DNA from: an uncultured virus (IMG/VR IMGVR_UViG_3300032030_000023)
Lineage: Duplodnaviria; Heunggongvirae; Uroviricota; Caudoviricetes
Length of the DNA: 62,640 nucleotides
IMG/VR virus record: IMGVR_UViG_3300032030_000023
Span: 62,001 to 124,640 of that record
Direction: 5' to 3' (one strand)
How positions within the stretch are numbered: position 1 is the first letter of the stretch; every line of letters starts with the position of its first letter. A program made the translations under genes and the position numbers. Positions 2,569-62,473 of this stretch are shown here, one piece after another. The notes below the pieces were generated by a model, which was not told the DNA's origin, did no database searches, and worked only from the letters and a program-made list of their open reading frames with translations.

Positions 2569-3954
2569 ATGAATAAATTTTATGATATGGAAACAAAGAT
2601 AAATAAAGTTATTGATATTCAACAATTATGGGATTCAGCTTGTACAGAATTAGCTTTAGAATTTCCTATCTTTGGACAGCTTATTCTTCAGATTGGTGTA
2701 AGATTTGTTTGGGATCAATCAAATAAACATATGGCTTGGACAGATGGTTCAAAGATTACTGTAAATGAAGCATTCATTCAGTATTTTTGTGCTAATCCTA
2801 AACAAGTAGATGATACTGGAACAGTACATAATATGAATATTTCTAAAAAAGAATTAGAGTTTGTATTATGTCATGAACTTATGCATCTTCTTGGATTATC
2901 TTTTGATAGAGGAACAAGATTAGGTATTGTTAAAGGTACTTATTCTAAAGAATTACAAGCTAAATGGAAATTATGGAATAAAGCTACTGATTATGAAATT
3001 AATTCACAGTTATCTAATAATCAGCAACAAAATTCAGATGGATATTATTCACATAAACCAGTTGGAAATATGCCTTCTTGGGTTCTTTATAGCTCTAAAT
3101 ATAAAGATATGACGGCTGAAGAAATTTATGAAGACTTATTAAAAGATTATGAAAAACATCCAGAAAATTATACCTTTGATAAAAATGAAGATGAGGATGA
3201 TGGTGGTAACAGTATAAGTGGTCTTCCTGGTTTAGATAAACATATGCCTATCTTAGATGATACAACCAGAAATGAACTTATCCAAAAGATTGCTAATGTA
3301 ACTTCTTCTACTGGTCAAGGTTATGGTTCTACAGCAGTTTCAAGACTTCTTGATATAGCTTTTAAGCCTATTCCTTTTAACTGGAAGAAAGCTTTACAAA
3401 GATATATTCGTAATTGGATTAAAGATAATTATACTTGGAATAAACCTTCAAGAGCTGGTATTGCTGCAGGTCTTATCTTACCTTCATCTTCTACAACACC
3501 TTGTATGCATATTGGTGTAGCAATCGATACTTCTGGTTCGGTTGGAGATAATGAATTACAAACTATGATGAATCACTTATTTACAATCTTAGGACAGTTC
3601 AAACAGTTTACTGTAGATGTATGGTGTAATTCAACTCAAGTACATGAAGATACTTGGAAACGATTTAACGCTTCAAACAAAAGAGAAATTAAAGAATATG
3701 CTTTCCAATCTGATGGTGGTACTGATTTGAAAAAATCATTTGAATTTATAGAGAAAAAATATAGAAATGAAAAATTAGATTTATTACTCTATATGACAGA
3801 TGGTTGTGATTGTGATGTAGATGGTAGTGATACACTTACTTGTAAATGTCCAGTTATTTGGTTAATCTTGGATAATAATGACTTTAAGAAACCAACTAGA
3901 ATTCCTGGTGCAGTCTATCCATTTGTTGTTGAAAAAGAAAAAGCTGGATACTAA
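2569..3954 (+). CDS. DUF2201-type metallopeptidase-like + VWA domain protein (MoxR partner)
   Basis: AWTDG, HELMH (HExxH), MIDAS DTSGS, DGGTD, MTDG. Confidence 0.88.
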   Translation: MNKFYDMETKINKVIDIQQLWDSACTELALEFPIFGQLILQIGVRFVWDQSNKHMAWTDGSKITVNEAFIQYFCANPKQVDDTGTVHNMNISKKELEFVLCHELMHLLGLSFDRGTRLGIVKGTYSKELQAKWKLWNKATDYEINSQLSNNQQQNSDGYYSHKPVGNMPSWVLYSSKYKDMTAEEIYEDLLKDYEKHPENYTFDKNEDEDDGGNSISGLPGLDKHMPILDDTTRNELIQKIANVTSSTGQGYGSTAVSRLLDIAFKPIPFNWKKALQRYIRNWIKDNYTWNKPSRAGIAAGLILPSSSTTPCMHIGVAIDTSGSVGDNELQTMMNHLFTILGQFKQFTVDVWCNSTQVHEDTWKRFNASNKREIKEYAFQSDGGTDLKKSFEFIEKKYRNEKLDLLLYMTDGCDCDVDGSDTLTCKCPVIWLILDNNDFKKPTRIPGAVYPFVVEKEKAGY

Positions 3955-19223: not shown

Positions 19224-19592
19224 ATGAATAAAGAATGTGAAGAATTAATTAATGAAGTTACAGCAACTATTTGTACAAAAGATAATATATTTAATGCTTT
19301 AGATAATCTAGAATATATTATTGATACTGTAAAACACAATGTTATTAGTGAAAAATTTACTAAAGTTTATCTTATCAACGGTAATCCAAATGATGTACGT
19401 CGAGAAATTAGTGCTAAGTATGGTTTTAGATGTAGTTGGGAAGGTTCACCAGAAACATGTGGTATTATTACAGTATATGTACCAAAAGATAAATGTACCA
19501 AAGCATTACTAGATAGCTTTAAAAAATATGATAAACTACTTGGTGCTCTTGGTACTAGTGATCCATGTAGAACATATCCAACTATAGATTAG
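19224..19592 (+). CDS. hypothetical protein
   Basis: AAGGA RBS. Confidence 0.7.
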   Translation: MNKECEELINEVTATICTKDNIFNALDNLEYIIDTVKHNVISEKFTKVYLINGNPNDVRREISAKYGFRCSWEGSPETCGIITVYVPKDKCTKALLDSFKKYDKLLGALGTSDPCRTYPTID

Positions 19593-19612
19593 CTGAAAGG
19601 TTAGATATAAAT

Positions 19613-19930
19613 ATGAGAATTTATGAAATTGAAAGCTATTTAACTAATATATTTAAGAAAAATAAGCTTTTAAAAGATAATTATTCAGTATTTATAATAT
19701 ATATAGCAAATAATAGTATCTTTTATAATTATGAGAGTGAATCAGAAGCAAAATATTATATATTTGTAGGGTGTTTAAAAAATACCAAAACTGAAATTCC
19801 TTTTGGAATACGAAGAAGAAAGTTTTTAGAAACTTTACTTAATAAACAACTTAAATGTACTACTTATAATTTAAAGTGTTGTCAAGAAGATTTAGAAAAA
19901 TTATATGTATTATCAAAAATTATGCAGTGA
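19613..19930 (+). CDS. small paralog-family protein
   Basis: ends EDLEKLYVLSKIMQ. Confidence 0.75.
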   Translation: MRIYEIESYLTNIFKKNKLLKDNYSVFIIYIANNSIFYNYESESEAKYYIFVGCLKNTKTEIPFGIRRRKFLETLLNKQLKCTTYNLKCCQEDLEKLYVLSKIMQ

Positions 19931-19941
19931 GGAGGTATATA

Positions 19942-20508
19942 ATGTTAGAAGTTAATATTTCAGATGCTATAACAGTTAAGCTTTTAGATAATGCTCATAA
20001 TATTATTGATAATAAGTATGTATTAACAGCTAAACAATATAAGTTATTATCTGTTGAACAAATTGATGAATTAACATTATTATTTAAAGTTCGTGATTAT
20101 AATACTAATGAAATTATTATCTTTTCAACCGAAGATGATGACATATTACATCGTCATATAGGTTTAGAGCATATTACTAACACTAATTTACAAATGAGAG
20201 CTATTAAAAAGGATTGTAAAGCCGTTGCTTCTAAGTTATATAATATATTATGTAAAAATGGTTTAATTAAAAGTAATAATATAACTGTTGATATTACACA
20301 TTATGGTGGAAAAACTTATCTTATAGAAATTAAAAATTTAAACAATTATTCGCCTTATTCATGTTGTCCATTTGGAGTTAAAAGACTTAAATTTATAAAT
20401 GAAATTACACAATTTAATTTAGAATTATCTTCCAATAATAAAGTTTTATGTATGGATGCTCTTCAATTTAATACATTAAAAACAGTTTTAAATATCTTAG
20501 GAGCCTAA
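19942..20508 (+). CDS. paralog-family protein with two tail-like motifs
   Basis: EQIDELTLLFKV and LQFNTLKTVLNILGA; GAGGAGG RBS. Confidence 0.7.
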   Translation: MLEVNISDAITVKLLDNAHNIIDNKYVLTAKQYKLLSVEQIDELTLLFKVRDYNTNEIIIFSTEDDDILHRHIGLEHITNTNLQMRAIKKDCKAVASKLYNILCKNGLIKSNNITVDITHYGGKTYLIEIKNLNNYSPYSCCPFGVKRLKFINEITQFNLELSSNNKVLCMDALQFNTLKTVLNILGA

Positions 20509-20509
20509 T

Positions 20510-20755
20510 ATGACAGAAGTAAGATCTATTGTTACTATTCCCTACGATATTAATCCTAAAAAAGATATATATCCAAAAGGAATAGTAATAAAGAAAGGAC
20601 AATATATTGTTAATGAGTGGGAATACGGTAAAAAAGTAAGTTCTAGTGATGCATTAAATCTAACTAATAAAGATACTAACGAATGGACTTGTTTTCTACT
20701 ATATCATCCAGATAAATATACTAAAGATTGGATTGTACATACTGAATACTTTTAA
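20510..20755 (+). CDS. hypothetical protein
   Basis: AGGAG RBS. Confidence 0.7.
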   Translation: MTEVRSIVTIPYDINPKKDIYPKGIVIKKGQYIVNEWEYGKKVSSSDALNLTNKDTNEWTCFLLYHPDKYTKDWIVHTEYF

Positions 20756-20770
20756 ACGAAGGAGAATATA

Positions 20771-21073
20771 ATGATGGAATTAAGACAATTATCATATTAT
20801 CTTTCAGGTTTTTTAGGTAAAAAATTAAAGAAATCAAGTATACTTACAAGATATTCTTTAGATAAACAATATATTATTATTAGTACTAGTAATAAAATAG
20901 TATATAGCCATATTTTAAAAGCAATAGAACAGTTAATAGAAGTTGTTCCAACAAGTAGAAGAAGTCCATTAGAAGGTATAATACCAGGTAATCATTATGA
21001 ATGTCTTATTTCAACAAAAGATGCAGAAAAACTAATGACTATATTAATAATTGGAGGATACTATATTGGCTAA
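20771..21073 (+). CDS. small paralog-family protein
   Basis: YECLISTKDAEKLMTILIIGG. Confidence 0.75.
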   Translation: MMELRQLSYYLSGFLGKKLKKSSILTRYSLDKQYIIISTSNKIVYSHILKAIEQLIEVVPTSRRSPLEGIIPGNHYECLISTKDAEKLMTILIIGGYYIG

Positions 21074-21392
21074 ATTAAGATTATGTAGAAATATTATAAG
21101 GAAATTAAACAAGAAATTCCATGATCAAGGTCTATCTTTTAGAATAGGAAAATATAGAAAAAATAATAACATTAAATTACTTATAACTTTTTATTATTTA
21201 AGATTTAAAGATTTAGACTTTATTTCAATTAAAAACTATATTAAAGACTTTGATAATACAGACGATTTTAAGTATAATATATATGAAGATGATATAGCTC
21301 GAACTAAAACAATAGTAATATTTAGTAATGAAGTAATTTTAGAAAAACTTTTAGCTTGTATATTATTGTTTCATAATTGTGATAAAGAATGA
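21066..21392 (+). CDS. small paralog-family protein (TTG start)
   Basis: VILEKLLACILLF; GGAGG RBS. Confidence 0.6.
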   Translation: MAKLRLCRNIIRKLNKKFHDQGLSFRIGKYRKNNNIKLLITFYYLRFKDLDFISIKNYIKDFDNTDDFKYNIYEDDIARTKTIVIFSNEVILEKLLACILLFHNCDKE

Positions 21393-21771
21393 ATAGATCA
21401 CCGCATATTGTTTTAATCAGTCCGTAATTTATTAATTAAAAAATTAAAAATTTATTTATTTTTGGTTTTTTAATTTAATAAATGTATGTTAATATTTAAA
21501 AATAAATGTAATATAGTAAGTAAGTTATTAATTAGATCATATAATATATAGAATTATTAAAAAATTAAAGAAATAGGAATTATTTTTCCAAATAGTAATC
21601 ATTTTTTTCTAAAAGATTATAGATTGACATAAAGGTACTTTTTTTGACCGTACAACAACTTTACAAAAATAATATATGATTTATTATATTTTTTAATAAT
21701 GTTGATTCTGGATTATTTTAGGAAGTTTTATGAAAGCTAAATATATAATTTATTAATGAGAGTTAAATAAG

Positions 21772-22092
21772 ATGACATATTCACAAATAAAACAATTATG
21801 TTCAAACTTAAGTAATGTATTATGTGCATATTTAGATGTAGAATGGGGAACAATTACATTAAATACTTGTGTTCAATCTGATAATAAGATTGAATATAGT
21901 TTTGCAATATGTGGATATGGTAAGTATAAAATTAGTAATCTGTTTAAAACTTTAGAAAAATTCTTAGTACAATTAAATATAAAACACCATGCACCACATA
22001 TAATGTTAAAACAAAATTTATGTTTTGTTCCTATAGACGTAGATCAACTTGATAAACTTATCATGTATTTTTCAATAGAAGGTTTATTATGA
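21772..22092 (+). CDS. small paralog-family protein
   Basis: FLVQLNIKH...DQLDKLIMYFSIEGLL. Confidence 0.75.
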   Translation: MTYSQIKQLCSNLSNVLCAYLDVEWGTITLNTCVQSDNKIEYSFAICGYGKYKISNLFKTLEKFLVQLNIKHHAPHIMLKQNLCFVPIDVDQLDKLIMYFSIEGLL

Positions 22093-22373
22093 GTAAAGAT
22101 TATGATACTTATCTTGAAGAAATCACAAGATTGCAAGAACTTTTAAAAGAAACTTTAAAAGCTAGACATAGTATTTTCTTCCATAAAACAAGTATATTAG
22201 CTTTTGATGAAGATGTAGAACCTTTAAAGCAATTTCTAACAGACTTAGGAATAGAATATAAAGAAACACAGAATGTTAAGATATCAGATACAGAGAAAGC
22301 AATAACTCTTGCAATGAATGAAAAAGAATATGAAAAACTTGTAGCATACTTTAAAATAAATGGAACCTATTAA
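22089..22373 (+). CDS. small paralog-family protein
   Basis: FLTDLGIEY...KEYEKLVAYFKINGTY. Confidence 0.75.
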   Translation: MSKDYDTYLEEITRLQELLKETLKARHSIFFHKTSILAFDEDVEPLKQFLTDLGIEYKETQNVKISDTEKAITLAMNEKEYEKLVAYFKINGTY

Positions 22374-22374
22374 A

Positions 22375-22408
22375 AATTGCTTTACATTTGAATTTTGTTT
22401 GATATAAT
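22375..22408 (+). promoter_or_regulatory. sigma70-type promoter (variant of repeated motif)
   Basis: TTTACA 22381-22386; TG-n-TATAAT 22400-22408. Confidence 0.7.
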
Positions 22409-22450
22409 TATATTATATTTTTTGAATAACTTAATTCTAGTTAAAATAAA

Positions 22451-22605
22451 AGAGATACCTCCTTTCGAGGTCTTCTGGCATATAAGACCTAAGCGGTTAT
22501 GATGCGTTACTAGAGCGTTAAAACAAATCTCACTTCTAAAATATTTTTTATCCGCAGACCAATTATTTTAGAAGATACGTAGTCAATCATAGCAATATGC
22601 CAATA
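22451..22605 (+). ncRNA. candidate structured RNA / riboregulator with pseudoknot
   Basis: ORF-free, GC-enriched; stems AGGTCTT/AAGACCT and CTTCTAAAATA/TATTTTAGAAG; loop TGGCATAT complementary to ATATGCCA. Confidence 0.5.
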
Positions 22606-22629
22606 CTTTTTTAACGAAGGAGAGTATGT

Positions 22630-22977
22630 ATGAAATTTTATTTTGAGGGTAATTATCATAACAAAGTATATTATAACAATGAGTTGTATTCAAATAAAGA
22701 TAATGGCCTTAAAGAAAAATTAAATGATTTATTCAAATGCTCTTATTTCAAATTTTTACTTTCAAATACATGTAATTATTCTATAACAATAGATAATAAA
22801 CAATATTGTTTTATGTCTTATTTTATAGCATCAACGGCATATACAGCAACTTTAATAGAAGAAAAACTTAAAGAAATTGGAATTGAATATTTTAAAACAG
22901 TTAATAATGAAATTTATTTAGATGAAAAACAATCAGAAAAGCTTTATATGTTTTTAGTTATTAATAAAATTATATAG
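22630..22977 (+). CDS. small paralog-family protein
   Basis: LKEIGIEY...KQSEKLYMFLVINKII. Confidence 0.75.
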   Translation: MKFYFEGNYHNKVYYNNELYSNKDNGLKEKLNDLFKCSYFKFLLSNTCNYSITIDNKQYCFMSYFIASTAYTATLIEEKLKEIGIEYFKTVNNEIYLDEKQSEKLYMFLVINKII

Positions 22978-22986
22978 GAAAATATT

Positions 22987-23265
22987 ATGCTTAAATATAA
23001 TCTTATACCAAAAATTCATACTGCAACAAAATTAATAAGTAGATGTATGAAGATAAACCAAAATCATTTATTATTGTTTTCAGCAAGAGAATTAGGTTAT
23101 ATTACTATTAGATCTCTTTCTAAAATAGATATTATTTATATGAAGGATAAGTTTGAAGAAAAATATAACTTTAAAACAATTATAAAAGATGATTATAGTT
23201 TAATTATAAAAATTGAAGATATAAATAATCTATTTGCACTTTATAAAATAGAAGGATGGATTTAA
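22987..23265 (+). CDS. small paralog-family protein
   Basis: ends EDINNLFALYKIEGWI. Confidence 0.75.
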   Translation: MLKYNLIPKIHTATKLISRCMKINQNHLLLFSARELGYITIRSLSKIDIIYMKDKFEEKYNFKTIIKDDYSLIIKIEDINNLFALYKIEGWI

Positions 23266-23579
23266 TGTCAGAATCAGATAATATAACACAAAATGATATG
23301 GAATTTGTAGATTTTAACAGATTTGCATTTATGTCTTATTGTATACATTCATTAAAAATCAGACATTGTTATACTACTTGCAAAAAGACTATGTTTGGAA
23401 TAATCATTAAATTTTGTGATTTGAATATCTGTAAAATTTTTTTAGAATGGTTAGAAACTCATTATGGAATAGCCAAAGAGTATAAAAGTAAACCGAATAA
23501 TTATAATAATGAAAAATATTCAGTTGAATTATCAAAACAAGATATAGAAAGAATGAAATTTATTAAAGCTATTTATTAA
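23265..23579 (+). CDS. small paralog-family protein
   Basis: YSVELSKQDIERMKFIKAIY. Confidence 0.7.
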   Translation: MSESDNITQNDMEFVDFNRFAFMSYCIHSLKIRHCYTTCKKTMFGIIIKFCDLNICKIFLEWLETHYGIAKEYKSKPNNYNNEKYSVELSKQDIERMKFIKAIY

Positions 23580-24891
23580 CCTTCTTTCCAATATCTTTAT
23601 ATTTAGAAACTAATTCTCTCTGTCTATTAATTTGTTTTTGAGTCTGTGCAAATCCCATATACTTACATAAGTGATCATTTTTAAGTATAGTAATGGCCAT
23701 ACGTTTCCAAGATGGTAATTCGGCTGTATGCATAATATCATCTGTACAATCTGGAGTACCTAAGAATATAACTTGTTGTTTCGGAGATATCTTATTAATT
23801 CTACCTAGATTACGTATTTTATATCCATGTTCTTCAAGTTCTTTAATTGTTTCATCATCTAAGCATCCACCTTTCTTCCACCAAAATCTAATAGATACTT
23901 TAAACTTTTCAATATAGTTCTCTCTAATTGCATCAGGTAAAGTAGCAAGTAAAAACTTAACGTAAGATCTCCAAGTATGTCCTTTTGGTAATGTAATACT
24001 TTTTGCACCTAATGCTTTTGTATCGCCATAAATCGCACCAAAATTAGCACCTTGTACACGTGATACTACTTTAATCCATGTCTGTGGCTCAATAACTCTA
24101 TAAAGATTAAGACTTCCTTTTGCATACTCTTGATATGGACTAGCTACACGCATTTGATAAATACTTAATCCAGCTTTATAAAAAAGGTCATATAACTTAT
24201 TATAAGGATAACCTTCTCTTGCATTAGCTATCCAAATATCTTCAGCACTCCAATCATATATAGGATAACCGTGACAATAGTTTTCACCCTTCTTTGTAGT
24301 CCATTTATTATCACCAAAAGTTAATTTCTTTTGATTATTAACAGCTCTAAAACGATTTAATGATTCATCAGTACGAATACCTAATAAACAAATAGTCTTA
24401 CCAGGATGTGTTTTTGCATACCAATCTTCAAATCCTGCATAAAAATCTTCCTGAGACATTTTATATTCATAAAAATCAAATGGATGATTATATTGATTAA
24501 TAACCCAAGGATAATTTGGCATAGGTCTAACCCACTGATCTTTTTTCTGATCATCCCAAGGATACCAATACATTTGATAATTACTAACAGCACATCTTGA
24601 TCCCATAGGAACACAACACCAATATGGTTCTATATCGTCAAGATTTTCAACAAACATCTTTTCTACATACTTAGAAGTCTCTTCATATTGAGATTCGAAG
24701 TCTTGATGAAATACACCTATTTTCTTAGTAATACCATGTTTACGTTTATAGTCAAGAATAAGATTTAAAACCATTCCACTATCTTTACCACCAGAAAATG
24801 AAACGTATATATTATCAAAAGTATCAAATATATACTTAATACGTTCCTGTGTAGCATCCCAAACATTCTTACCAATATATCTCTTAGCCAT
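23569..24891 (-). CDS. ibrA: IbrA-like PAPS-reductase/PP-loop + DUF3440 protein
   Basis: SFSGGKDS PP-loop, GIRTDESLNR, PIYDW, PSWKRM...KND...F. Confidence 0.88.
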   Translation of the reverse strand: MAKRYIGKNVWDATQERIKYIFDTFDNIYVSFSGGKDSGMVLNLILDYKRKHGITKKIGVFHQDFESQYEETSKYVEKMFVENLDDIEPYWCCVPMGSRCAVSNYQMYWYPWDDQKKDQWVRPMPNYPWVINQYNHPFDFYEYKMSQEDFYAGFEDWYAKTHPGKTICLLGIRTDESLNRFRAVNNQKKLTFGDNKWTTKKGENYCHGYPIYDWSAEDIWIANAREGYPYNKLYDLFYKAGLSIYQMRVASPYQEYAKGSLNLYRVIEPQTWIKVVSRVQGANFGAIYGDTKALGAKSITLPKGHTWRSYVKFLLATLPDAIRENYIEKFKVSIRFWWKKGGCLDDETIKELEEHGYKIRNLGRINKISPKQQVIFLGTPDCTDDIMHTAELPSWKRMAITILKNDHLCKYMGFAQTQKQINRQRELVSKYKDIGKKVNK

Positions 24892-24910
24892 AAATCTTAT
24901 TCCTAAATCA

Positions 24911-25081
24911 TTATTGCAAAAAAGTACTAAAACTTATTCCCAAAGTAAAACCACATAATATAAAAATTATTACATATAAATTAAGATAATCACGTATATC
25001 TGCATTAATATGTTTTAAATATAAACTTATCATTAACGCAATCAAAGCTGACATAAATCCAATCGTATTTAATAAAGTCAT
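24911..25081 (-). CDS. small two-helix membrane protein
   Basis: two hydrophobic stretches; between ibrB and ibrA. Confidence 0.55.
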   Translation of the reverse strand: MTLLNTIGFMSALIALMISLYLKHINADIRDYLNLYVIIFILCGFTLGISFSTFLQ

Positions 25082-25083
25082 TT

Positions 25084-25611
25084 TTAATCTACTTCCCAAG
25101 CTTCACTAAAATCTTTTTCTTTAAATAATGATGCTAAACCTGTAATTTGCTTTAATCGCAATACTTCATCAGGACTCATACCAATATTTTTACAAATCCA
25201 TGCATCACTCTTACCCATTTCAACTAACTCAGCAATAATATTACTCATTAAATCAACATTATGACTACCGCGTGCTCTATTATGACGAATAGTTGAAGCC
25301 ATACGTTCTCCCAATTCTTTATCAATAGTAACTACCGGTAATAATCCATGCTCTCTCTCATAAATACGCTTACTAGTCTTCATTGTAGTATAACGGTGAA
25401 AACCATCTACAATAACATAACGGTCATTTTCTTTATCATAATAACATACAACTGGTTGTGTATATCCATCTTCCCATATACTTGTCTCTAATAACGCCAT
25501 CTCAGGAGGAGCAACTTTATTAGGATTATATTCATTAGCATAAACTTTATCTAAAGGGACTGCTCTTACATTATATACAGGACTAAGAAATTTTTCATTT
25601 TCTTCAGACAT
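25084..25611 (-). CDS. ibrB: IbrB-like ParB/Srx-domain protein
   Basis: ANEYNPNKVAPPEM, DGYTQP, IVDGFHR, STIRHNRARG. Confidence 0.9.
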   Translation of the reverse strand: MSEENEKFLSPVYNVRAVPLDKVYANEYNPNKVAPPEMALLETSIWEDGYTQPVVCYYDKENDRYVIVDGFHRYTTMKTSKRIYEREHGLLPVVTIDKELGERMASTIRHNRARGSHNVDLMSNIIAELVEMGKSDAWICKNIGMSPDEVLRLKQITGLASLFKEKDFSEAWEVD

Positions 25612-25696
25612 AACAACTCCTTTTATCAATTAAACTTTAAATATATTATATATAAAGAACTGCTAAAGTAAAACAAAAAACATAAAGATTTTAAAG

Positions 25697-25748: not shown

Positions 25749-26045
25749 ATGTTAATGTACAATATTAAAAAATTCTATAGTATAGTCAATGAAGAATATG
25801 ATATTGTTAAAATACAAATCTTTGTTGACAATATTAATGATGAAGGATATTGTAAAATACATGTTCTTAATAAACTAAATCCTGTAACTAGAATAACTAG
25901 TATTATGTCATTTATGGATTTGTTGAATAAACTTGAAATTAAAGATTATTCATGCAGTGTAGAGTCTAGTTTATCTCTACAAATAGATATAGATTCAGAA
26001 GAAGCAGAAAAATTATTTTTATATTTGAGGGTTTATTATGACTAA
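25749..26045 (+). CDS. small paralog-family protein
   Basis: LLNKLEIK...EEAEKLFLYLRVYYD. Confidence 0.75.
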   Translation: MLMYNIKKFYSIVNEEYDIVKIQIFVDNINDEGYCKIHVLNKLNPVTRITSIMSFMDLLNKLEIKDYSCSVESSLSLQIDIDSEEAEKLFLYLRVYYD

Positions 26046-26343
26046 TTTAACAGACATACTGACAGAGGTAGATAAAAAGTCATTTAATGAAGAATGGTTA
26101 TCTATAAACAATATAACTAATATTTTTATTGTAGCTTCATATAATGTAGAAAATGTTAATGCAATTTTAGCAGAATTAGAAATAAAACCTATTTTTATAG
26201 ATGAAAATATAAAAGATCATTTAATTTATAATGAAGTAACTATACATATGATTACATTTATATTCAATAGGATTTTATATAGCTTTTCAGAAGAAGACGC
26301 AGAAAAAATTAGAATGCTAATGAGGATATATGATAATGAATAA
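26038..26343 (+). CDS. small paralog-family protein
   Basis: ends EDAEKIRMLMRIYDNE; duplicate of next gene. Confidence 0.75.
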   Translation: MTNLTDILTEVDKKSFNEEWLSINNITNIFIVASYNVENVNAILAELEIKPIFIDENIKDHLIYNEVTIHMITFIFNRILYSFSEEDAEKIRMLMRIYDNE

Positions 26344-26668
26344 CAATGCTGTAATACATATGGACGGTAATTTAGCGGGTATGCTTCTAGAATTAAAAAC
26401 GGAAATATTTAATCAAGAATGGTTATTTACTAATAATATAACTAACACTTTTGCTATAGCACCGTATAATGTAGAAACTGTCAATATGATTTTAACAGAA
26501 TTAGAAATAAAACCCATTCTTATAGAAAAAAAGCCAGTAGATCATTTAATTTCTACAACATTCTCTATACTTTTAACTACATTTCTATTTGGAAAGATTT
26601 TATATAGTTTTTCAGAAGAAGATGTAGAAAAACTTAGAATAATAATGAGGATATACAGCAATGAATAA
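26330..26668 (+). CDS. small paralog-family protein
   Basis: ends EDVEKLRIIMRIYSNE. Confidence 0.75.
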   Translation: MIMNNNAVIHMDGNLAGMLLELKTEIFNQEWLFTNNITNTFAIAPYNVETVNMILTELEIKPILIEKKPVDHLISTTFSILLTTFLFGKILYSFSEEDVEKLRIIMRIYSNE

Positions 26669-26996
26669 TAATTGTGTAATACATATTAGCAGTAATCAAA
26701 TAATACAAGGACAAAAACATTTTACAATACCTAGAAAAGTTGAAGTATATGAGATATATTCTTATAGAATAACTATGAAAAAACCAGTATTTAAAACAAA
26801 TGATTCTACAGATACTTTTGCAGATTGCTTTATACAAATAGCAGGTGATGAAACTTTTCAAAAAATATGTCAAGATCTAAATATTCAATGGACAAAAAAA
26901 GCAATAAAATCTTACGCTACATTCTATAACTTTGATAAAGAAGATTACGAAAAACTATACTTCTATATTAAAATCATCGGAGAACATATAGTATGA
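26661..26996 (+). CDS. small paralog-family protein
   Basis: EDYEKLYFYIKIIGE. Confidence 0.75.
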   Translation: MNNNCVIHISSNQIIQGQKHFTIPRKVEVYEIYSYRITMKKPVFKTNDSTDTFADCFIQIAGDETFQKICQDLNIQWTKKAIKSYATFYNFDKEDYEKLYFYIKIIGEHIV

Positions 26997-27316
26997 ATCA
27001 ACTAAATTCAAAAGAAATAGATCCAATACGAATACTAAGAAATACACCAAGATTTACTAGATTTATACAGGATATACTAGGATTAAAATGTGAAGACAAA
27101 AATATATCAGACGATGCATTTATTATGAATGAAGGTTATAGACCAAAAGTATTACATGCGCTTTTACAACTCGATATAACTCCAATCTTTATTGACAGAC
27201 TTGATAATATATTCACAAATAAGTATTTAGAAGAAAGAGTATCGGCTTTTACTATTATAGATATAACTGAAGAAGATCATAAAAAACTAAAACTACTTCT
27301 CAAAATTTATAAATAA
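26993..27316 (+). CDS. small paralog-family protein
   Basis: ends EDHKKLKLLLKIYK. Confidence 0.75.
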   Translation: MNQLNSKEIDPIRILRNTPRFTRFIQDILGLKCEDKNISDDAFIMNEGYRPKVLHALLQLDITPIFIDRLDNIFTNKYLEERVSAFTIIDITEEDHKKLKLLLKIYK

Positions 27317-27410: not shown

Positions 27411-29372
27411 CTACAATGTAATATCATACAACTGATTTACAAACTTTTTACCATTCTTTTCACTAATCAAAATATAACAACCCAATTTACTCTCATCTAA
27501 CTCCTTCAACTGAGCTGTATCTAATACCTTAACAAATTTTGAACAACTATTATAAACATACACAATCTCATGCTCTTTATCAGCTTTCTTATAACCAACC
27601 TTCTCTAAAGCTTCTAAATTAACTCTCTGCTTATCTACTAAATATACTAACTTTTTACCAGCATAAATACTGCCTAAATACTTTTGAATATAACTAAACC
27701 ACTCATAAGTACCAAATACATAATACAAATTAGCTTGATTAACTAACTTAACATTACCATCAGCTAATACAAAATAACTAAACACACCTACCAATTCATC
27801 TTTACGATAACATCCAATGAACTGTAACTGTGGATTAATCTCACTTGTAACAATATCAGCCTCAGAACTTAACTGCCTTAAAAACTCTAACGCTACAGCC
27901 TCTTTAATACTATCAAAACGTAACTTGTCATAAGACACCTTCACTGGAGCACTACACTTCCAATTCAGCTTAAACGCCAAACTATCCCAAGGCATTTCCA
28001 AAAGTTTAAACATACATCTATCTCCTTTTTTATCAAAACTATATAATACGTTATCACAAACTTTTCCATTTGTAAAGCGAAAAACATTATTTGTTGAAAA
28101 TTTTCTTATTTTACTTCTATCTAAATTTCTAGCTCTGAACATACTACATAGAGTTGGTATAGTAGTATTATATTTGTGTGCTAATTCAGCCCATGATAAT
28201 ACTTTTGAGTCTTCTAATATATTATCAAATTGAATACTTAAATAATAAGTACTTTTTCTACCTATTACCCAACCTTCTCCAGGATATTCATATACTAGTT
28301 GATCTGTTTTGCCATCAGTATACCAAGTTCTACCTTTCTTTGCTTTTGCTAAAGCTTGTTTATGTTCTTCTGTAAATTTTAAATGAGGTGAATGCTGTGT
28401 CATACCTTTACTAAAACCTTCAGGAGGAACTACATCTGGTTTAATAAAGATATTAACTTCATCATTAGTATACCAAATTTTTCCAGAAATTATACTTGCT
28501 ATCTTTTCTTTAAACTCTTTAGTCTGTGTAAAAGCATAAGTTTCTGGATTATAATTTTCTTTTTTAGCTTTTGAAATCTTCTCTCCAACAGTTAATCTAG
28601 ATTGTTTATACTTTTCAGAATTTTTTATTAATTCACCGTGTAATTTACACTTTTCTTCTGTCCAATACTTATGTCTATCATATTTATAATCAAGACCACG
28701 CGTTCTTAATGTATTCTGATAAGGATTAATAGATAAATTATATCCACCATGATCTATTCCAGCATTTTCAGACTTTATTAATTCATATTCTTTATTAAAT
28801 AACTTTTCTTCACTATAACACCAACAAAGTATTTCTCTTTTAAACTTTTCTTTACCATATAACTCTAAATCTTTCCAATAATCATCATTTTGAGAAGAAG
28901 ACCAATAATCTTCATTAAAATACGGTAATTGACATTGACCAACATAACTTCTATTATTCTCAAGGCATGTTATCTTATAAATATAACCAAACGGTAAATA
29001 ATCTCTCACTAATACATCACTATCTTCAAAGAAATCACAATACTCTATATATTCTTTTTTATATGTCAAAAACGGACAAACTATCTTAATATTATTAGCT
29101 TTTAAAATCTCATTACATACACGCTTTATACCAACTCTTCCTTTACTGTCAATAAACGCCTTCTGATAAATCCACTTCCAATACGGTTCTTCACCTTCAA
29201 CTAATATTACAGCATCTAACCTAACAATCTCATTTTCTATATCTTTTCCAGCTTTATATGACATAATAATAAGAGGATTACTATAACTTTTCAATAAACA
29301 AATGTCATCACCACTTATATACTTAACTATTTCTTCTAACTCAACTACTTTAGCATATGTACTATATTTCAT
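27411..29372 (-). CDS. composite Seg-like GIY-YIG homing endonuclease with NUMOD3-like repeats and Hef-like C-terminal region
   Basis: GYIYKITCLENNRSYVGQ, YGKEKFKREIL, GYNL; WYTND/WYTDG...GWVIGR repeats. Confidence 0.75.
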   Translation of the reverse strand: MKYSTYAKVVELEEIVKYISGDDICLLKSYSNPLIIMSYKAGKDIENEIVRLDAVILVEGEEPYWKWIYQKAFIDSKGRVGIKRVCNEILKANNIKIVCPFLTYKKEYIEYCDFFEDSDVLVRDYLPFGYIYKITCLENNRSYVGQCQLPYFNEDYWSSSQNDDYWKDLELYGKEKFKREILCWCYSEEKLFNKEYELIKSENAGIDHGGYNLSINPYQNTLRTRGLDYKYDRHKYWTEEKCKLHGELIKNSEKYKQSRLTVGEKISKAKKENYNPETYAFTQTKEFKEKIASIISGKIWYTNDEVNIFIKPDVVPPEGFSKGMTQHSPHLKFTEEHKQALAKAKKGRTWYTDGKTDQLVYEYPGEGWVIGRKSTYYLSIQFDNILEDSKVLSWAELAHKYNTTIPTLCSMFRARNLDRSKIRKFSTNNVFRFTNGKVCDNVLYSFDKKGDRCMFKLLEMPWDSLAFKLNWKCSAPVKVSYDKLRFDSIKEAVALEFLRQLSSEADIVTSEINPQLQFIGCYRKDELVGVFSYFVLADGNVKLVNQANLYYVFGTYEWFSYIQKYLGSIYAGKKLVYLVDKQRVNLEALEKVGYKKADKEHEIVYVYNSCSKFVKVLDTAQLKELDESKLGCYILISEKNGKKFVNQLYDITL

Positions 29373-29709: not shown

Positions 29710-31269
29710 TTAAGCATTGTTGAAGTTAGCAATGTATCCTTTGCATAAGTATTCGGATTTGTTAATAAACAAATCGTAGAATGACAAGCAACCACGATGG
29801 TTTTTCAAATTAGGTGCCTGGAATGTCGGCGTGAAGTACAACGGAATCCACTCCGCTAAAATTATAGATGAGTCACCTAATTGGAAGCCTTTGAAGCCAA
29901 ATACAACTTCGTCAGCAGCCAGTGTGTTGGTGTAAGGAACAGCGATAACACTGATTGTGCCTTCACGCAAAGTACCAGCCAAGTACGGACCAATTGGTTT
30001 CTTAGCTTCAGGAGCAGCTTTGAAGCCTTCGATGTTTTCGATGACTGTTAAGCCTTCTTTAGCTGAGCAGATGATGAAGTCTACAGTACCACGACCAGCA
30101 ACTTCTTGGATCAAGCCGCGAGCTGTTGAGATAGTCGTTGTATAAGAGCTATATCTCTGTTGCAGTGTCAAGTTAGCACCATTAGCAGCACAGTCGAATG
30201 TCAAGTCTGCATAAGGAGTAGCAGCAGCAGAAACAGCACGAACTAATGTTAAGTCACGTTCCCAACGAATTGTACCAGCCATTTGGTTAGAGATCAATTC
30301 GTCAGTATCGATAGCTAAGTGAGCGTTCATAACCAAACCAGCAGCAACACTGTAAGAAGACATCAACGGATGTTCTTTAGCGAGAATCGGTTGGTTAGGA
30401 ATATCGAACTGAATTTTACGAATCAAGTCAACGTCAGTTTCAGTATCAACAGCACCTTCAAAGCTCATAACAGCTTTAGCGGCGATAGCTTCAGCATACA
30501 GAGCAGCATCCAATTTGATTGTAGCTTCACCTGTTTGAGCATTAACTGTACCAGCAACACCACGACCGATGATGTTGTATTCACCTTCGTTAACACCGTC
30601 TAATTTAGCAGAACCGTTACCGTAGTCACGGGCAATTTCTTTACCAGCCAAACGAACGATGAAAGAACCTGCACGCAATTTAACTGTAGCGTCATCCGGG
30701 AAAGCAGAAGACGGAGTAGCAGTAACTTCAGCAGCAGCTTCAGCGTTATCGTAACCAATGAATTCAGAAGAATATGTACCATCAGTAGCTTGTTCGAATA
30801 CGATATCACCAGCTTCAACACCAGCAGCACTCTGAGAATAACGTGTTTTGATGATGAAGATTTGACCAGACTGACGATCTAAAGCCTGGATATCGGCAAT
30901 GTAATTCGCAACCATCTGCGGATAAAAGATGTTGACGATATCTACGACTTTAGGAGTCAATGATGTAACGCCAGGAGACAAGAGAGAAACAGCGTTAGTG
31001 TTTCCACCGTCCAGACCAGCTTCCATCAAGTTGATGCCTTGTTCGTGTTGAACGTATTCAGCTGTGTTTTCGAGTAATTGAACCATTGTAGCAGCTTGGT
31101 ATTGAGCGTCTTTGTTTTCAGACTCGATACCTTTAATCAAGTTCGGGCAGCGTGCACCCAGTGTAGATTCAGCCAAAACTTTAGCAGCGTGTTTAATGCC
31201 GTTGTTAACTTTAGCTGTACGAGCTTTAGCAACAGTTTCGTTAGCATTTACTTGAGCGAATAAACTCAT
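29710..31269 (-). CDS. major capsid protein (T4 gp23-like, jumbo phage)
   Basis: 519 aa; IQFDIPNQPILAKEHPLMSSYS...AHLAIDTDELIS and AEWIPL match gp23 pattern; strongly biased, higher-GC codon usage. Confidence 0.85.
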   Translation of the reverse strand: MSLFAQVNANETVAKARTAKVNNGIKHAAKVLAESTLGARCPNLIKGIESENKDAQYQAATMVQLLENTAEYVQHEQGINLMEAGLDGGNTNAVSLLSPGVTSLTPKVVDIVNIFYPQMVANYIADIQALDRQSGQIFIIKTRYSQSAAGVEAGDIVFEQATDGTYSSEFIGYDNAEAAAEVTATPSSAFPDDATVKLRAGSFIVRLAGKEIARDYGNGSAKLDGVNEGEYNIIGRGVAGTVNAQTGEATIKLDAALYAEAIAAKAVMSFEGAVDTETDVDLIRKIQFDIPNQPILAKEHPLMSSYSVAAGLVMNAHLAIDTDELISNQMAGTIRWERDLTLVRAVSAAATPYADLTFDCAANGANLTLQQRYSSYTTTISTARGLIQEVAGRGTVDFIICSAKEGLTVIENIEGFKAAPEAKKPIGPYLAGTLREGTISVIAVPYTNTLAADEVVFGFKGFQLGDSSIILAEWIPLYFTPTFQAPNLKNHRGCLSFYDLFINKSEYLCKGYIANFNNA

Positions 31270-48726: not shown

Positions 48727-48790
48727 GTTGTACAAGTTCTTAAAAACATGATATAATATATTATATTTCGAAAAATATAGGAGAAGTGTC

Positions 48791-48958
48791 ATGTTTACAA
48801 ATAAATACATAGTTCATCCTCAAAACGATTTAAAATCACAATTTGCTGAAGAATTTGATTCGAAACAAGAAGCAGAAAAGCGTTGTGATGAATTGAATAC
48901 TAAACTCACAAAAATTGTTTGGGTTATTTCCACGATCTTAGTAAATACAGGGTGGTAA
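48791..48958 (+). CDS. 55-aa hypothetical protein (not in ORF track)
   Basis: AGGAG RBS; FDSKQEAE motif. Confidence 0.6.
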   Translation: MFTNKYIVHPQNDLKSQFAEEFDSKQEAEKRCDELNTKLTKIVWVISTILVNTGW

Positions 48959-48960
48959 TA

Positions 48961-61025: not shown

Positions 61026-61474
61026 TGAAATTACTTGATAAACTTAAAGATATAACTATATATTCTTTAAAAGTTCATAATTACAGAGAAAGAAAAGAAT
61101 TCTCTAAAATATTACACGGTTTTCTAGTAAAATATAATATACCTAATAAAATAATAGTACCTAGATTTAAAAACCAAATAATAATAGAATCTTTCAAAGT
61201 TAAATATGGTGTATCATCAAAAGTATCATTTGAATATGAATTAAATTTAAGTACATTCGAAGACGCTATAAAAATATATGGTATACCTTTCTATTACAAT
61301 GAACAAAACTCAATAAAACAACCTTACTATAACACTATCACTCTAACAATAGAATACTCACAATATATTCAAGACTTTGTAAAACTAACAACCATACAAG
61401 GCAAATATCCAAAAATAAACTACAGAATGCTTGAAGACTTTGGCATCGATAACTACACTAAACCAGAGAATTAA
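61025..61474 (+). CDS. paralog-family protein
   Basis: QYIQDFVKLTTIQGKY; N-terminus resembles the 60672 gene. Confidence 0.65.
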   Translation: MKLLDKLKDITIYSLKVHNYRERKEFSKILHGFLVKYNIPNKIIVPRFKNQIIIESFKVKYGVSSKVSFEYELNLSTFEDAIKIYGIPFYYNEQNSIKQPYYNTITLTIEYSQYIQDFVKLTTIQGKYPKINYRMLEDFGIDNYTKPEN

Positions 61475-62427
61475 AGATCAACACCTGTCTTTTGATTAAA
61501 ACCAATACTAGAATCATATGATTTATAAAAATTGATCCAATATAACTTTCGTTCTTTTGCATTTTCTTTTGTACAGTATTCTATAACTTCTTTTTTAAAC
61601 ACACTTTTATCAAATCTACTTAGTGCATTTTTAAAATATGGATCAGAACTTAATTTACAATCTATTCCATTAGTATAATCAACATGATAATCTATAAATA
61701 TCTTATTAGTCTTTGTATTAGTAATTTTCATAATATAATACTTAGGAGTTATAGGATTTGGATTCATTTTACATCTAGCTACATGTTTATCATAATTACA
61801 TTCTATTACTTCTTTACCACAATAAGGACATTTTAATCTAGGTATATTATTCATTGCAATTTGTGTTTTATTAGAAATCTCTTTTTTCTTTTCATCAGAC
61901 CATACAGTATTTTTATTTGTAGGAGGTAAACCTTCTCTAGAATTACATTTCTGTGCCCATTCTCTTGGCAAACCTCTAATCCAACCTTTAGGAGGTTCTT
62001 TTCCTTTTAATACTCTTGTAGCTTCGTTTGTTTCTGGATTATAATATACGCAATGCCCTTTAAGTATTTCAGACTTCTTTAAAAATATTTCATTTTTATT
62101 TTGATTATTTGTATATGTATCACCACCATCACCACCACAAGCAATATTATATCCAATCGCAGTGTCTTTAGTGTTTAAAGTATCAATCCAATACTTTTCT
62201 CTTTCATTATGTATATATTCATCATCTTCAGATTCTTCTAATAATTCTATCTTAAAATTTTCCTTACCATATTTGCGAATAGCTTTTATTATAGGCATAT
62301 TAACTTCAGTATGACTACTTGCTCTATAACAATGTACTTTAAATCGTTCTTCTAAAGAATTTTTTGTATAACCTACGTAAATTTTTCCATTTATTAAATT
62401 AGTTATTTTATATATCTTACTGCTCAT
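61471..62427 (-). CDS. free-standing GIY-YIG homing endonuclease with second degenerate GIY-YIG domain
   Basis: KIYKITNLINGKIYVGYT, YGKENF, GYN; C-terminal YIMKITN...FKKEVIE...GFN. Confidence 0.88.
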   Translation of the reverse strand: MSSKIYKITNLINGKIYVGYTKNSLEERFKVHCYRASSHTEVNMPIIKAIRKYGKENFKIELLEESEDDEYIHNEREKYWIDTLNTKDTAIGYNIACGGDGGDTYTNNQNKNEIFLKKSEILKGHCVYYNPETNEATRVLKGKEPPKGWIRGLPREWAQKCNSREGLPPTNKNTVWSDEKKKEISNKTQIAMNNIPRLKCPYCGKEVIECNYDKHVARCKMNPNPITPKYYIMKITNTKTNKIFIDYHVDYTNGIDCKLSSDPYFKNALSRFDKSVFKKEVIEYCTKENAKERKLYWINFYKSYDSSIGFNQKTGVDL

Positions 62428-62430
62428 AAT

Positions 62431-62473
62431 AAAAAACTCCAGCATTCTATTTATAACATTTAGAACACTGGAG
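62431..62473 (-). promoter_or_regulatory. hairpin (terminator-like) sequestering the endonuclease RBS, with internal late-promoter motifs
   Basis: minus strand CTCCAGTGTTCTA-aatgttataaa-TAGAATGCTGGAG-TTTTTT. Confidence 0.7.

What the first reader, a model, noticed from the sequence alone, without database searches (positions are those of the whole stretch)
22451..22605. Candidate novel pseudoknotted RNA behind its own promoter
Seen: a GC-enriched non-coding stretch after a good promoter. Hairpin AGGTCTT(22468-74)/AAGACCT(22484-90) has loop TGGCATAT(22476-83), which is perfectly complementary to ATATGCCA(22595-602). There is a perfect 11-bp stem (22533-43/22564-74), plus GTTATGAT(22496-503)/ATCATAGC(22586-93) and GAGAT/ATCTC (22452/22527). 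An alternative hairpin ACCTC/GAGGT excludes the first one. The element ends about 15 nt before the next RBS. Inference: a riboswitch-like leader, ribozyme or small RNA; I cannot match it to a known family.
Basis: partly seen in the sequence, partly recalled or inferred. Interest (0 to 1): 0.7.

Follow-up and report, generated by a model that had tools for sequence, protein, structure and literature searches.

The report
Conserved pseudoknotted phage small RNA
The flagged stretch is a real, previously undescribed small RNA gene of uncultured rumen jumbo phages: it keeps a pseudoknotted fold and, just before it, a sequence that copies the ribosome's own mRNA-docking tail.

Summary
Taken on this window alone the evidence is weak. 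Folding gives z = -2.55, which 4.7% of 129 coding windows also reach. There is no Rfam hit.

Three diverged copies in related phage contigs (L021/G010, L020, L012/G009) settle the question. All sit behind the same TTGCTTTACA plus TG-extended -10 promoter, on the strand opposite the capsid gene.

All four copies keep the same order of parts:
- ACCUCCUU
- hairpin Pc
- an 8-bp helix Pd that closes a 95-111-nt arm
- exactly one A
- a strand complementary to the Pc loop (the pseudoknot)

The helix sequences differ. All 95 of 95 hand-aligned cells pair, and 15 of 22 shared columns carry compensatory double changes. None of about 258 unrelated ACCTCCT(T) sites shows this architecture.

In the three relatives the RNA ends at its own terminator and no gene follows. 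It is therefore a stand-alone ncRNA, not a riboswitch leader. Only in this window does it run into an RBS and three small genes.

The function is inferred, not shown. My best guess is that the 16S-tail-like motif pairs with Shine-Dalgarno sites.

The parts
22381..22408 (+). Promoter: TTTACA (22381-86), 16-nt spacer, TG (22400-01), TATAAT (22403-08). TSS inferred near 22415.
   Evidence: 11 of 12 plus TG, the best of 25 sites. The same (A)nTTGCTTTACA -35 box, followed by a TG just upstream of a -10-like hexamer (my reading), precedes all three homologs. Only this part of the query matched related genomes by BLAST.
22415..22454 (+). AU-rich 5' segment of the RNA. Its length varies between copies: 70, 106, 113 and 154 nt from the -35 box to the motif.
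22455..22467 (+). 16S-3'-tail-like anti-Shine-Dalgarno motif, AUACCUCCUUUCG. The core ACCUCCUU (22457-64) is invariant in all 4 copies.
   Evidence: It is the only one of the 17 ACCTCCT sites in the genome on the + strand; 13 of the 16 on the other strand show CAT 5-10 nt upstream, as the complement of an RBS plus ATG would (my reading of its printed context). The 16S tail sequences come from PMC5427494. The motif is complementary to 22615-27: -13.6 kcal/mol.
22468..22490 (+). Hairpin Pc: 22468-74 pairs with 22484-90; 9-nt loop at 22475-83.
   Evidence: 6 of 6 shared columns carry compensatory changes across 4 copies.
22476..22483 (+). Pseudoknot 5' strand, UGGCAUAU, inside the Pc loop.
   Evidence: Pairs with 22595-602. 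6 of 8 shared columns are compensatory. Pair probability 0.52-0.83 when treated as a nested helix.
22496..22503 (+). Pd 5' strand, GUUAUGAU.
   Evidence: Pairs with 22586-93. It is 8 bp in 4 of 4 copies, with 3 compensatory columns. It closes the arm in the unconstrained MFE of 4 of 4 copies.
22533..22574 (+). Pe: a perfect 11-bp hairpin (22533-43 with 22564-74). The 20-nt loop contains AUCCGCAG (22550-57).
   Evidence: Pair probability 0.93-1.0. Every copy has one long 9-11-bp hairpin in the arm, but whether these are positionally homologous is unresolved.
22586..22602 (+). Pd 3' strand (22586-93), an invariant single A (22594), and the pseudoknot 3' strand AUAUGCCA (22595-602).
   Evidence: The spacer is exactly 1 nt (A) in 4 of 4 copies.
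22603..22629 (+). Junction specific to this window: AUAC, U6 (22607-12), then the RBS GGAGAG (22619-24) of the next gene. 22603-12 can pair with 22618-27.
   Evidence: SD bases are 55-66% paired with the U-run and 20-27% with the anti-SD motif. There is no terminator here, unlike the three homologs.
22630..23579 (+). Three small genes (115, 92 and 107 aa) that follow the RNA in this phage only.
   Evidence: No Pfam or PHROG family matches. The first protein has one 87%-identical relative and a weak LAGLIDADG/MotA-CTD-like predicted fold.

Best explanation
Positions 22415-22612 encode a stand-alone structured non-coding RNA. It belongs to a lineage of uncultured, AT-rich jumbo phages; the sequencing runs sharing words with this stretch are mostly labelled ruminant-gut metagenomes. 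A strong host-type promoter (TTTACA, TG-extended -10) drives it.

The RNA presents the invariant sequence ACCUCCUU(UC), identical to the mRNA-docking 3' tail of Firmicute-type 16S rRNA. Directly after it comes a compact scaffold: hairpin Pc, whose loop pairs with a strand placed one A after the 3' strand of helix Pd (an H-type pseudoknot or a switch), and a 95-111-nt arm closed by Pd.

Proposed mechanism (inferred). The tail-like motif acts as a seed that base-pairs with Shine-Dalgarno regions of mRNAs and blocks 30S docking. The pseudoknotted body gives stability or protein contacts.

In this particular phage the RNA has lost its terminator and doubles as the 5' leader of a three-gene cassette. 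The cassette's RBS (22615-27) can pair with the same seed, or with the adjacent U-run, which would damp its translation.

Confidence is split. That this is a conserved pseudoknotted ncRNA gene: about 0.9. That the seed works by pairing with SD sites: about 0.4.
For: SHOWN.
(1) Four copies share the same order of parts behind the same promoter and on the strand opposite the capsid gene: window, L021/G010, L020 and L012/G009.
(2) Covariation. In my hand alignment 95 of 95 helix cells are Watson-Crick or G.U. Compensatory columns: 6 of 6 in Pc, 6 of 8 in the pseudoknot, 3 of 8 in Pd. On an unedited MAFFT alignment of 3 copies, 39 of 39 cells pair with 3 double changes; slid controls give 13-55% paired and 0-1 double changes.
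(3) Five G.U pairs would be A.C mismatches on the other strand, so the fold belongs to the promoter's strand.
(4) Specificity. Among 60 unrelated loci carrying promoter-like plus ACCTCCTT sequences, none reaches score 22 or more. Among about 198 unrelated ACCTCCT sites, none does either. Only the known contigs do.
(5) Stand-alone gene. Hairpin plus U6-7 terminators follow in the 3 relatives (dG -22, -17.1 and -21.3 kcal/mol). Then come convergent genes, with no plausible same-strand ORF.
(6) No ORF is conserved. No Rfam family matches.
(7) The motif equals 10-11 nt of the B. subtilis-type 16S tail GAUCACCUCCUUUCU (PMC5427494, passages read).
(8) The phage's own genes use strong GAAAGGAGGU-type RBSs, which the seed pairs with at -16 to -18.5 kcal/mol.
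(9) Cis pairing in this window: -13.6 kcal/mol, rank 4 of 206 genes. SD accessibility is 0.20, rank 21 of 206.

INFERRED: transcription itself, early timing, trans-pairing with SD sites, and any effect on translation.
Against: - There are no transcript data.
- Only four copies exist and two of them (L021, L020) are close. No R-scape-type statistic is possible.
- The hand alignment and the descriptor were built from the proposed structure, which biases pair counts. The independent checks are.
- The seed is not uniformly predicted to be open: mean unpaired probability is 0.39, 0.88, 0.62 and 0.41.
- Predicted targets are simply the strongest RBSs. No orthologous target emerges (E 0.23-0.27). The capsid gene ranks about 98th of 206.
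- The cis anti-RBS pairing is matched by 6.7% of 1000 shuffled leaders.
- A fully paired 11-nt loop, as in L012, is sterically hard to reconcile with a closed Pc (my reasoning). Pc and the long-range helix may therefore alternate rather than coexist.
- The RNA was not found in G001-G008, either near the capsid gene or by covariance model.
Confidence: 0.45

Rival explanations
1. It is a decoy of the 16S rRNA 3' tail. The exposed CACCUCCUUUC on a nuclease-resistant pseudoknot would titrate a protein that recognises the anti-SD tail, such as an rRNA-cleaving toxin or defence nuclease, an rRNA-processing enzyme or an initiation factor. It would not pair with mRNAs.
For: The motif matches the tail beyond the CCUCC core: 10-11 contiguous nt. 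The folded body next to it is conserved. No specific mRNA target is evident. From my own knowledge, not from a call: phage RNA mimics that neutralise endoribonuclease toxins exist (pseudo-ToxI of phage phiTE), and MazF-type toxins that cut the anti-SD have been reported.
Against: No partner protein is encoded next to the RNA in any copy. The helix-45 context of the real tail is not copied. The flanks of the motif vary (UUUCG, UUGG, UUCAAG). Nothing was tested.
Confidence: 0.15
2. It is a cis-regulatory leader (riboswitch, thermosensor or attenuator) of the operon at 22630-23579.
For: In this window the RNA runs straight into an RBS. The SD is mostly paired in the predicted ensemble. Anti-RBS complementarity is -13.6 kcal/mol, rank 4 of 206. 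The 222-nt distance from promoter to start is unusual here; most intergenic promoters listed lie 14-57 nt from a start codon. T4 offers precedents for RBS-sequestering structures (PMC2988022, passages read).
Against: 3 of 4 copies have a terminator and no downstream gene. The anti-RBS partner and the ACCTC/GAGGT alternative hairpin exist only here (my reading). The downstream gene is absent from the relatives. No ligand-type conserved core and no Rfam match.
Confidence: 0.1
3. It is an antisense or relic element. ACCTCCTT would be the complement of an RBS for a small opposite-strand gene (type I toxin-antitoxin-like), and the RNA would be its antisense regulator or a leftover.
For: In L020 the opposite strand reads AAGGAGGTG, then 10 nt, then ATG, opening a 40-aa ORF that looks hydrophobic by eye.
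Against: By my reading of the opposite strands, that ORF is 7 codons long in L021 and has no start codon in L012 or in the window. The structure is conserved on the other strand, with G.U pairs. The capsid gene has its own terminator before the RNA gene in L020.
Confidence: 0.15
4. It is a chance set of complementarities in a non-functional spacer.
For: Window-only statistics are unremarkable.
Against: Four copies keep three helices through 15 compensatory columns, at a fixed 1-nt spacing and with a conserved promoter. None of about 258 control sites does the same.
Confidence: 0.05

Closest known systems
Trans-acting bacterial and phage small RNAs whose C/U-rich seeds pair with Shine-Dalgarno regions (for example RsaE/RoxS and RNAIII of Firmicutes, and prophage DicF). 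Recalled, not from a call.
   Same: Own promoter; own intrinsic terminator in 3 of 4 copies; no ORF; a short conserved pyrimidine-rich motif complementary to GGAGG.
   Different: No sequence or Rfam relation. The motif copies 10-11 nt of the 16S tail rather than a short C-run. It sits next to a conserved pseudoknot and a roughly 100-nt arm. No target is known.
RBS-sequestering RNA structures of phage T4 homing-endonuclease and late genes (PMC2988022, passages read).
   Same: In this window the SD of the next gene is predicted to be paired, either with an upstream U-run or with the distant anti-SD motif.
   Different: The T4 structures are local hairpins tied to one gene and bypassed by an internal late promoter. 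Here the RNA is an independent, conserved gene in 3 of 4 phages, and no internal promoter is evident.
Phage T4 RegB endoribonuclease (recalled).
   Same: A phage early function aimed at GGAG Shine-Dalgarno sites. This is a functional analogy for the proposed mechanism.
   Different: RegB is a protein nuclease. Here the agent would be an RNA acting by pairing. Untested.
ToxI / phage pseudo-ToxI pseudoknotted antitoxin RNAs of type III toxin-antitoxin systems (recalled).
   Same: A phage-borne pseudoknotted RNA that could neutralise a host ribonuclease by mimicry.
   Different: No second copy of the element lies in the genome; no tandem-repeat finder was run. No adjacent toxin gene and no sequence similarity.
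Phage T4 gene 32 mRNA leader pseudoknot (recalled).
   Same: An H-type pseudoknot near the 5' end of a phage transcript, upstream of an RBS.
   Different: The T4 pseudoknot is a cis operator for its own protein product. Here no gene follows in 3 of 4 copies.

Membership tests
Any Rfam 15 family | Match to a covariance model at its gathering score | tested here: not met
   No matches in the window or in the rest of the genome. At E<=10 over 22300-22700 there were only two noise hits, 17-18 bits against cut-offs of 50-100. The homolog loci gave only two sub-threshold hits, on an unrelated minus-strand hairpin.
Riboswitch / cis-regulatory leader | Lies in the 5' UTR of a regulated gene in the family's members | tested here: not met
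   3 of 4 copies end at a terminator and no same-strand gene follows.
Riboswitch / cis-regulatory leader | Conserved expression platform (alternative terminator/antiterminator or SD-sequestering helix) | tested here: not met
   The ACCTC/GAGGT alternative hairpin and the anti-RBS/RBS pairing exist only in the window copy (my reading of the sequences).
Stand-alone trans-acting small RNA | Own promoter | tested here: met
   GCTTTACA -35 box in 4 of 4 copies. The TG-extended -10-like hexamers are read. The consensus scanner itself scored only the window (11 of 12) and L301 (9 of 12) promoters.
Stand-alone trans-acting small RNA | Own intrinsic terminator | tested here: inconclusive
   Stable hairpin followed by U6-7 in 3 of 4 copies, but their loops exceed the scanner's limits and it did not call them. 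The window copy has only AUAC-U6 and no adjacent hairpin.
Stand-alone trans-acting small RNA | Conserved, accessible seed with identifiable targets | tested here: inconclusive
   The seed ACCUCCUU is invariant in 4 of 4 copies. Its predicted accessibility is 0.39-0.88. The targets found are generic strong RBSs, with no orthologous target.
H-type RNA pseudoknot | A hairpin loop pairs with a downstream strand, with both helices supported | tested here: met
   Pc: 6 of 6 compensatory columns. Loop-tail helix: 6 of 8. Whether the two helices form at the same time cannot be tested with these tools.
Type I toxin-antitoxin antisense RNA | Overlaps, in antisense, a conserved small hydrophobic toxin ORF | tested here: not met
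   A 40-aa ORF exists in L020 only. By my reading it is 7 codons long in L021 and absent in L012 and the window.
Type III (ToxI-like) antitoxin RNA | Tandem RNA repeats next to a toxin gene | tested here: not met
   No second copy lies in the genome. Neighbouring genes are a capsid gene, a homing-endonuclease-like gene or small ORFs. No tandem-repeat finder was run.
Self-cleaving ribozymes | Match to a known ribozyme core | tested here: not met
   No ribozyme model matched even at E<=10. Cleavage itself cannot be tested here.

The most novel reading that the evidence does not exclude
These jumbo phages make an RNA copy of the ribosome's own anti-Shine-Dalgarno tail, mounted on a pseudoknotted scaffold. 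The phage would use it to take over translation initiation or to defuse a defence. It could soak up SD sites of competing mRNAs, or act as a decoy for a factor or toxin that recognises or cleaves the 16S 3' tail. Either way it would be an RNA-level counterpart of phage-encoded ribosomal protein S21 or of T4 RegB.
Probability: 0.2. Interest if true: 0.85.

Novelty: new variant of a known kind. Interest (0 to 1): 0.6.

Why it matters
Few structured non-coding RNAs of phages are known, and to my knowledge none has been described for this uncultured jumbo-phage lineage. Its closest cultured capsid relative is only 35% identical.

This family is defined by a promoter, an invariant 16S-tail-like motif and a covariation-supported pseudoknot. 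That makes it a concrete, testable candidate for RNA-based manipulation of translation initiation, or of a tail-recognising host factor.

The window copy also shows how such an RNA gene can be captured as the leader of a newly inserted gene cassette.

Two full-text searches found no paper describing a phage-encoded anti-SD-mimic RNA. Those searches cover only the open-access library.

Tried and rejected
- Rfam at gathering and permissive thresholds found nothing. ARAGORN found no tRNA or tmRNA.
- BLAST of the element against GenBank phages gave only AT-rich or promoter fragments, at most 28% coverage. The L021 copy gave no match.
- An exact 23-mer in viral contigs gave 0 hits.
- The flanking proteins have no relatives in viral contigs. 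The metagenome scan returned only an identical copy, L047, 401 of 401 bases identical. L047's record could not be searched.
- The protein search gave one 87%-identical relative, P0002, whose DNA I could not fetch.
So there is no expression or variant data.
- Covariance model R1 (window only) found nothing credible in G001-G010. Its best hit, 16 bits, lies antisense inside an ORF.
- Model R2 (3 copies) found only G010. With filters off it placed the G009 copy 4th, at 13.3 bits. Its alignment A7 was too polluted to use.
- Four further pattern scans of viral contigs returned only the known contigs plus unrelated loci.
- MITE or repeat reading rejected: no second copy in the genome.
- Leader-peptide attenuator rejected: only 4-5-codon ORFs without an SD, by my reading.
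- Group I intron or LAGLIDADG-maturase idea rejected: no intron model hit, and a promoter and stop codon separate the flanking genes.
- A 'paralogous small-ORF family' was not supported: phmmer gave no hit at E<=10.
- Capsid mRNA as a specific target rejected: it ranks about 98th of 206.
- The second long promoter-to-start gap, at 48757, holds a 55-aa ORF and is not a leader.
- Earlier scan notes: nothing near this place or similar to this sequence.

Full report
CONTEXT. The window is bases 62001-124640 of a 124.6-kb IMG/VR virus record, estimated 52% complete, with 27% GC. Its major head protein (window 29710-31269, minus strand) has 15 relatives at 57-82% identity in IMG/VR, several on contigs of 227-237 kb. 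This is an uncultured jumbo-phage lineage. The best GenBank phage capsid match is only 35% identical. Runs sharing words with the stretch are mostly labelled ruminant-gut metagenomes. An identical copy lies on a 263-kb metagenome contig.

THE OBSERVATION. The promoter is excellent: TTTACA, 16 nt, TG-n-TATAAT, scoring 11 of 12. GC rises to 0.36. No credible ORF covers the stretch.

On the window alone the case is weak:
- MFE z = -2.55 on the plus strand (2 of 200 shuffles as good) against -0.82 on the minus strand.
- 4.7% of 129 coding windows fold as well relative to their own shuffles.
- 20 of 140 intergenic windows reach z <= -3.
- The individual features (a hairpin with a distal loop complement; an 11-bp perfect inverted repeat) occur at about the chance rate in this AT-rich DNA.

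Rfam has nothing. Sequence searches found no homolog. A covariance model built from the single sequence also found none.

THE TURNING POINT. The 5' edge of the element reads GAUACCUCCUUUCG. ACCTCCT occurs 17 times in the genome. By my reading of the printed context, 13 of these are the reverse complement of an RBS followed by ATG, 3 lie elsewhere on the minus strand, and only the element's copy is on the plus strand.

I then looked for such 'orphan' anti-SD motifs in the capsid-flanking loci of the relatives and read the hits. This exposed diverged homologs.

Next I ran a structural descriptor: CCTCC; a hairpin; a loop complement of at least 7 nt; and a helix whose 3' strand ends 0-2 nt before that complement. 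Across 361 kb it returned four strong instances: the window, L021 (G010), L020 and L012 (G009). All four lie on the strand opposite the capsid gene, and all have an 8-bp Pd and a spacer of exactly one A.

All four sit behind (A)nTTGCTTTACA, then 16-17 nt, then a TG-extended -10.

COVARIATION.

| Helix | Window | L021 | L020 | L012 |
|---|---|---|---|---|
| Pc | AGGUCUU/AAGACCU | GAUGUA/UGCAUC | GAUGUGU/ACGCAUC | UACGGUC/GACCGUA |
| Loop-tail (PK) | UGGCAUAU/AUAUGCCA | UUAUAUAU/AUAUAUAA | CUUACAUAU/AUAUGUAGG | UUAUACUUUUG/CAAAAGUAUAA |
| Pd | GUUAUGAU/AUCAUAGC | GUUAUAAU/AUUAUAAC | GCUAUAAU/AUUAUAGC | GAUAUUCU/AGAAUAUU |

All 95 cells are canonical pairs. Of the 22 shared columns, 15 carry compensatory double changes, 2 change on one side only, and 5 are invariant.

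On an unedited MAFFT alignment of three copies, 39 of 39 cells pair, with 3 double changes. Slid controls give 13-55% paired.

Five G.U pairs assign the fold to the promoter's strand.

Pd closes the arm in the unconstrained MFE of all four copies, and each arm holds one long 9-11-bp hairpin.

Controls: among 60 unrelated loci carrying both the promoter decamer and ACCTCCTT, and among about 198 unrelated ACCTCCT sites, none reached the homologs' score.

Caveats: there are only four sequences; two are close to each other; and the descriptor and hand alignment derive from the hypothesis.

WHAT KIND OF ELEMENT. In L021, L020 and L012 the pseudoknot is followed, after 60-95 nt, by a stable hairpin plus U6-7 (dG -22, -17.1 and -21.3 kcal/mol). 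After that come convergent genes (capsid or a homing-endonuclease-like gene), with no plausible same-strand ORF. Predicted RNAs are about 300, 313 and 362 nt long. The consensus scanner did not call these terminators because their loops exceed its limits.

The family is therefore a stand-alone ncRNA gene.

The window copy is the exception. After AUAUGCCA come AUAC-U6, an RBS, and three small genes. Those genes, an IbrA/IbrB-like pair and five more small ORFs have no counterpart in the relatives' capsid-flanking loci. Here the RNA has become a 5' leader.

In the predicted ensemble the SD is 55-66% paired with the adjacent U-run and 20-27% with the distant anti-SD motif. The anti-RBS duplex is -13.6 kcal/mol, rank 4 of 206 genes, but 6.7% of shuffled leaders do as well. 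SD accessibility ranks 21 of 206. I take this cis effect to be plausible but secondary.

MECHANISM. The one invariant single-stranded candidate is ACCUCCUU(UC). It is identical to 10-11 nt of the B. subtilis-type 16S 3' tail GAUCACCUCCUUUCU (PMC5427494, abstract and passages). The phage's own genes use GAAAGGAGGU-type RBSs, which it would pair with at -16 to -18.5 kcal/mol.

The most economical reading is an antisense seed for SD regions mounted on a stable scaffold, by analogy with SD-targeting sRNAs and, functionally, with T4 RegB (both recalled).

Against this reading: predicted seed accessibility is mixed, at 0.39-0.88. No specific or orthologous target emerges.

A decoy of the 16S tail for a protein is a live alternative.

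A type I TA-like antisense reading rests on one 40-aa opposite-strand ORF in L020 that is not conserved.

Whether Pc and the loop-tail helix coexist or alternate cannot be decided. An 11-nt fully paired loop, as in L012, argues for partial pairing or for a switch (my reasoning).

COMPARISON AND NOVELTY. No Rfam family matches this RNA or its homologs. It fails the tests for a riboswitch leader, type I and type III antitoxin RNAs, and known ribozymes. It meets most tests for a stand-alone sRNA and for an H-type pseudoknot. Two open-access full-text searches found no described phage anti-SD-mimic RNA.

I class it as a new variant of a known kind (phage-encoded small RNA), with a bolder possibility: a ribosome-tail mimic.

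SIDE RESULT. The first downstream protein (115 aa) has only one relative, at 87% identity. Its predicted fold is low-confidence (pLDDT 62). Its weak structural neighbours are LAGLIDADG endonucleases and the T4 MotA C-terminal domain: TM 0.3-0.55 and Foldseek E 0.1-0.6. This is a hint only.

Noticed in passing
window 19224-23579 and 25749-27316: Long arrays of roughly 80-120-aa ORFs with no Pfam or PHROG family. The region between them and the capsid gene is hypervariable among relatives. The 115-aa protein at 22630-22977 has weak LAGLIDADG/MotA-CTD-like structural neighbours.
   Followed up: partly
window 23569-25629 (minus strand): A PAPS-reductase-like plus ParB-like gene pair (IbrA/IbrB type, PHROG E 2e-108 and 2e-80). 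It has no counterpart in the relatives' capsid-flanking loci.
   Followed up: no
G000:C1 50438-50613, 50810-50985, 51796-51971, 3679-3854 and 54433-54629 (outside the window): Several intergenic stretches fold far better than shuffles (z down to -7.2, GC up to 0.40). They have no tRNA or Rfam match. They may be terminators or further unknown RNAs.
   Followed up: partly
L020 2694-2816 (strand opposite the RNA): A 40-aa ORF that looks hydrophobic by eye. Its strong RBS is the exact complement of the RNA's anti-SD motif. It is not conserved in the other three copies.
   Followed up: partly
window 22610-22627; G000:C1 59916-59933, 69569, 56972: A near-identical RBS cassette, (TTT)AACGAAGGAGAGTAT, recurs in front of several unrelated small genes.
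   Followed up: no
window 27411-29372, 61471-62445, 2569-3954: Homing-endonuclease-like genes (GIY-YIG and HNH PHROG hits). One lies directly beside the capsid gene and is shared with L021.
   Followed up: no
window 48727-48960: A second strong TG-extended promoter (48727-48757) is followed by an unlisted 55-aa ORF with a good RBS, starting at 48792.
   Followed up: partly
L023 (G003) about 1500-1600: The same promoter type next to the capsid gene in G003 is followed only by a short hairpin-terminator. This may be a reduced or lost version of the RNA gene.
   Followed up: no
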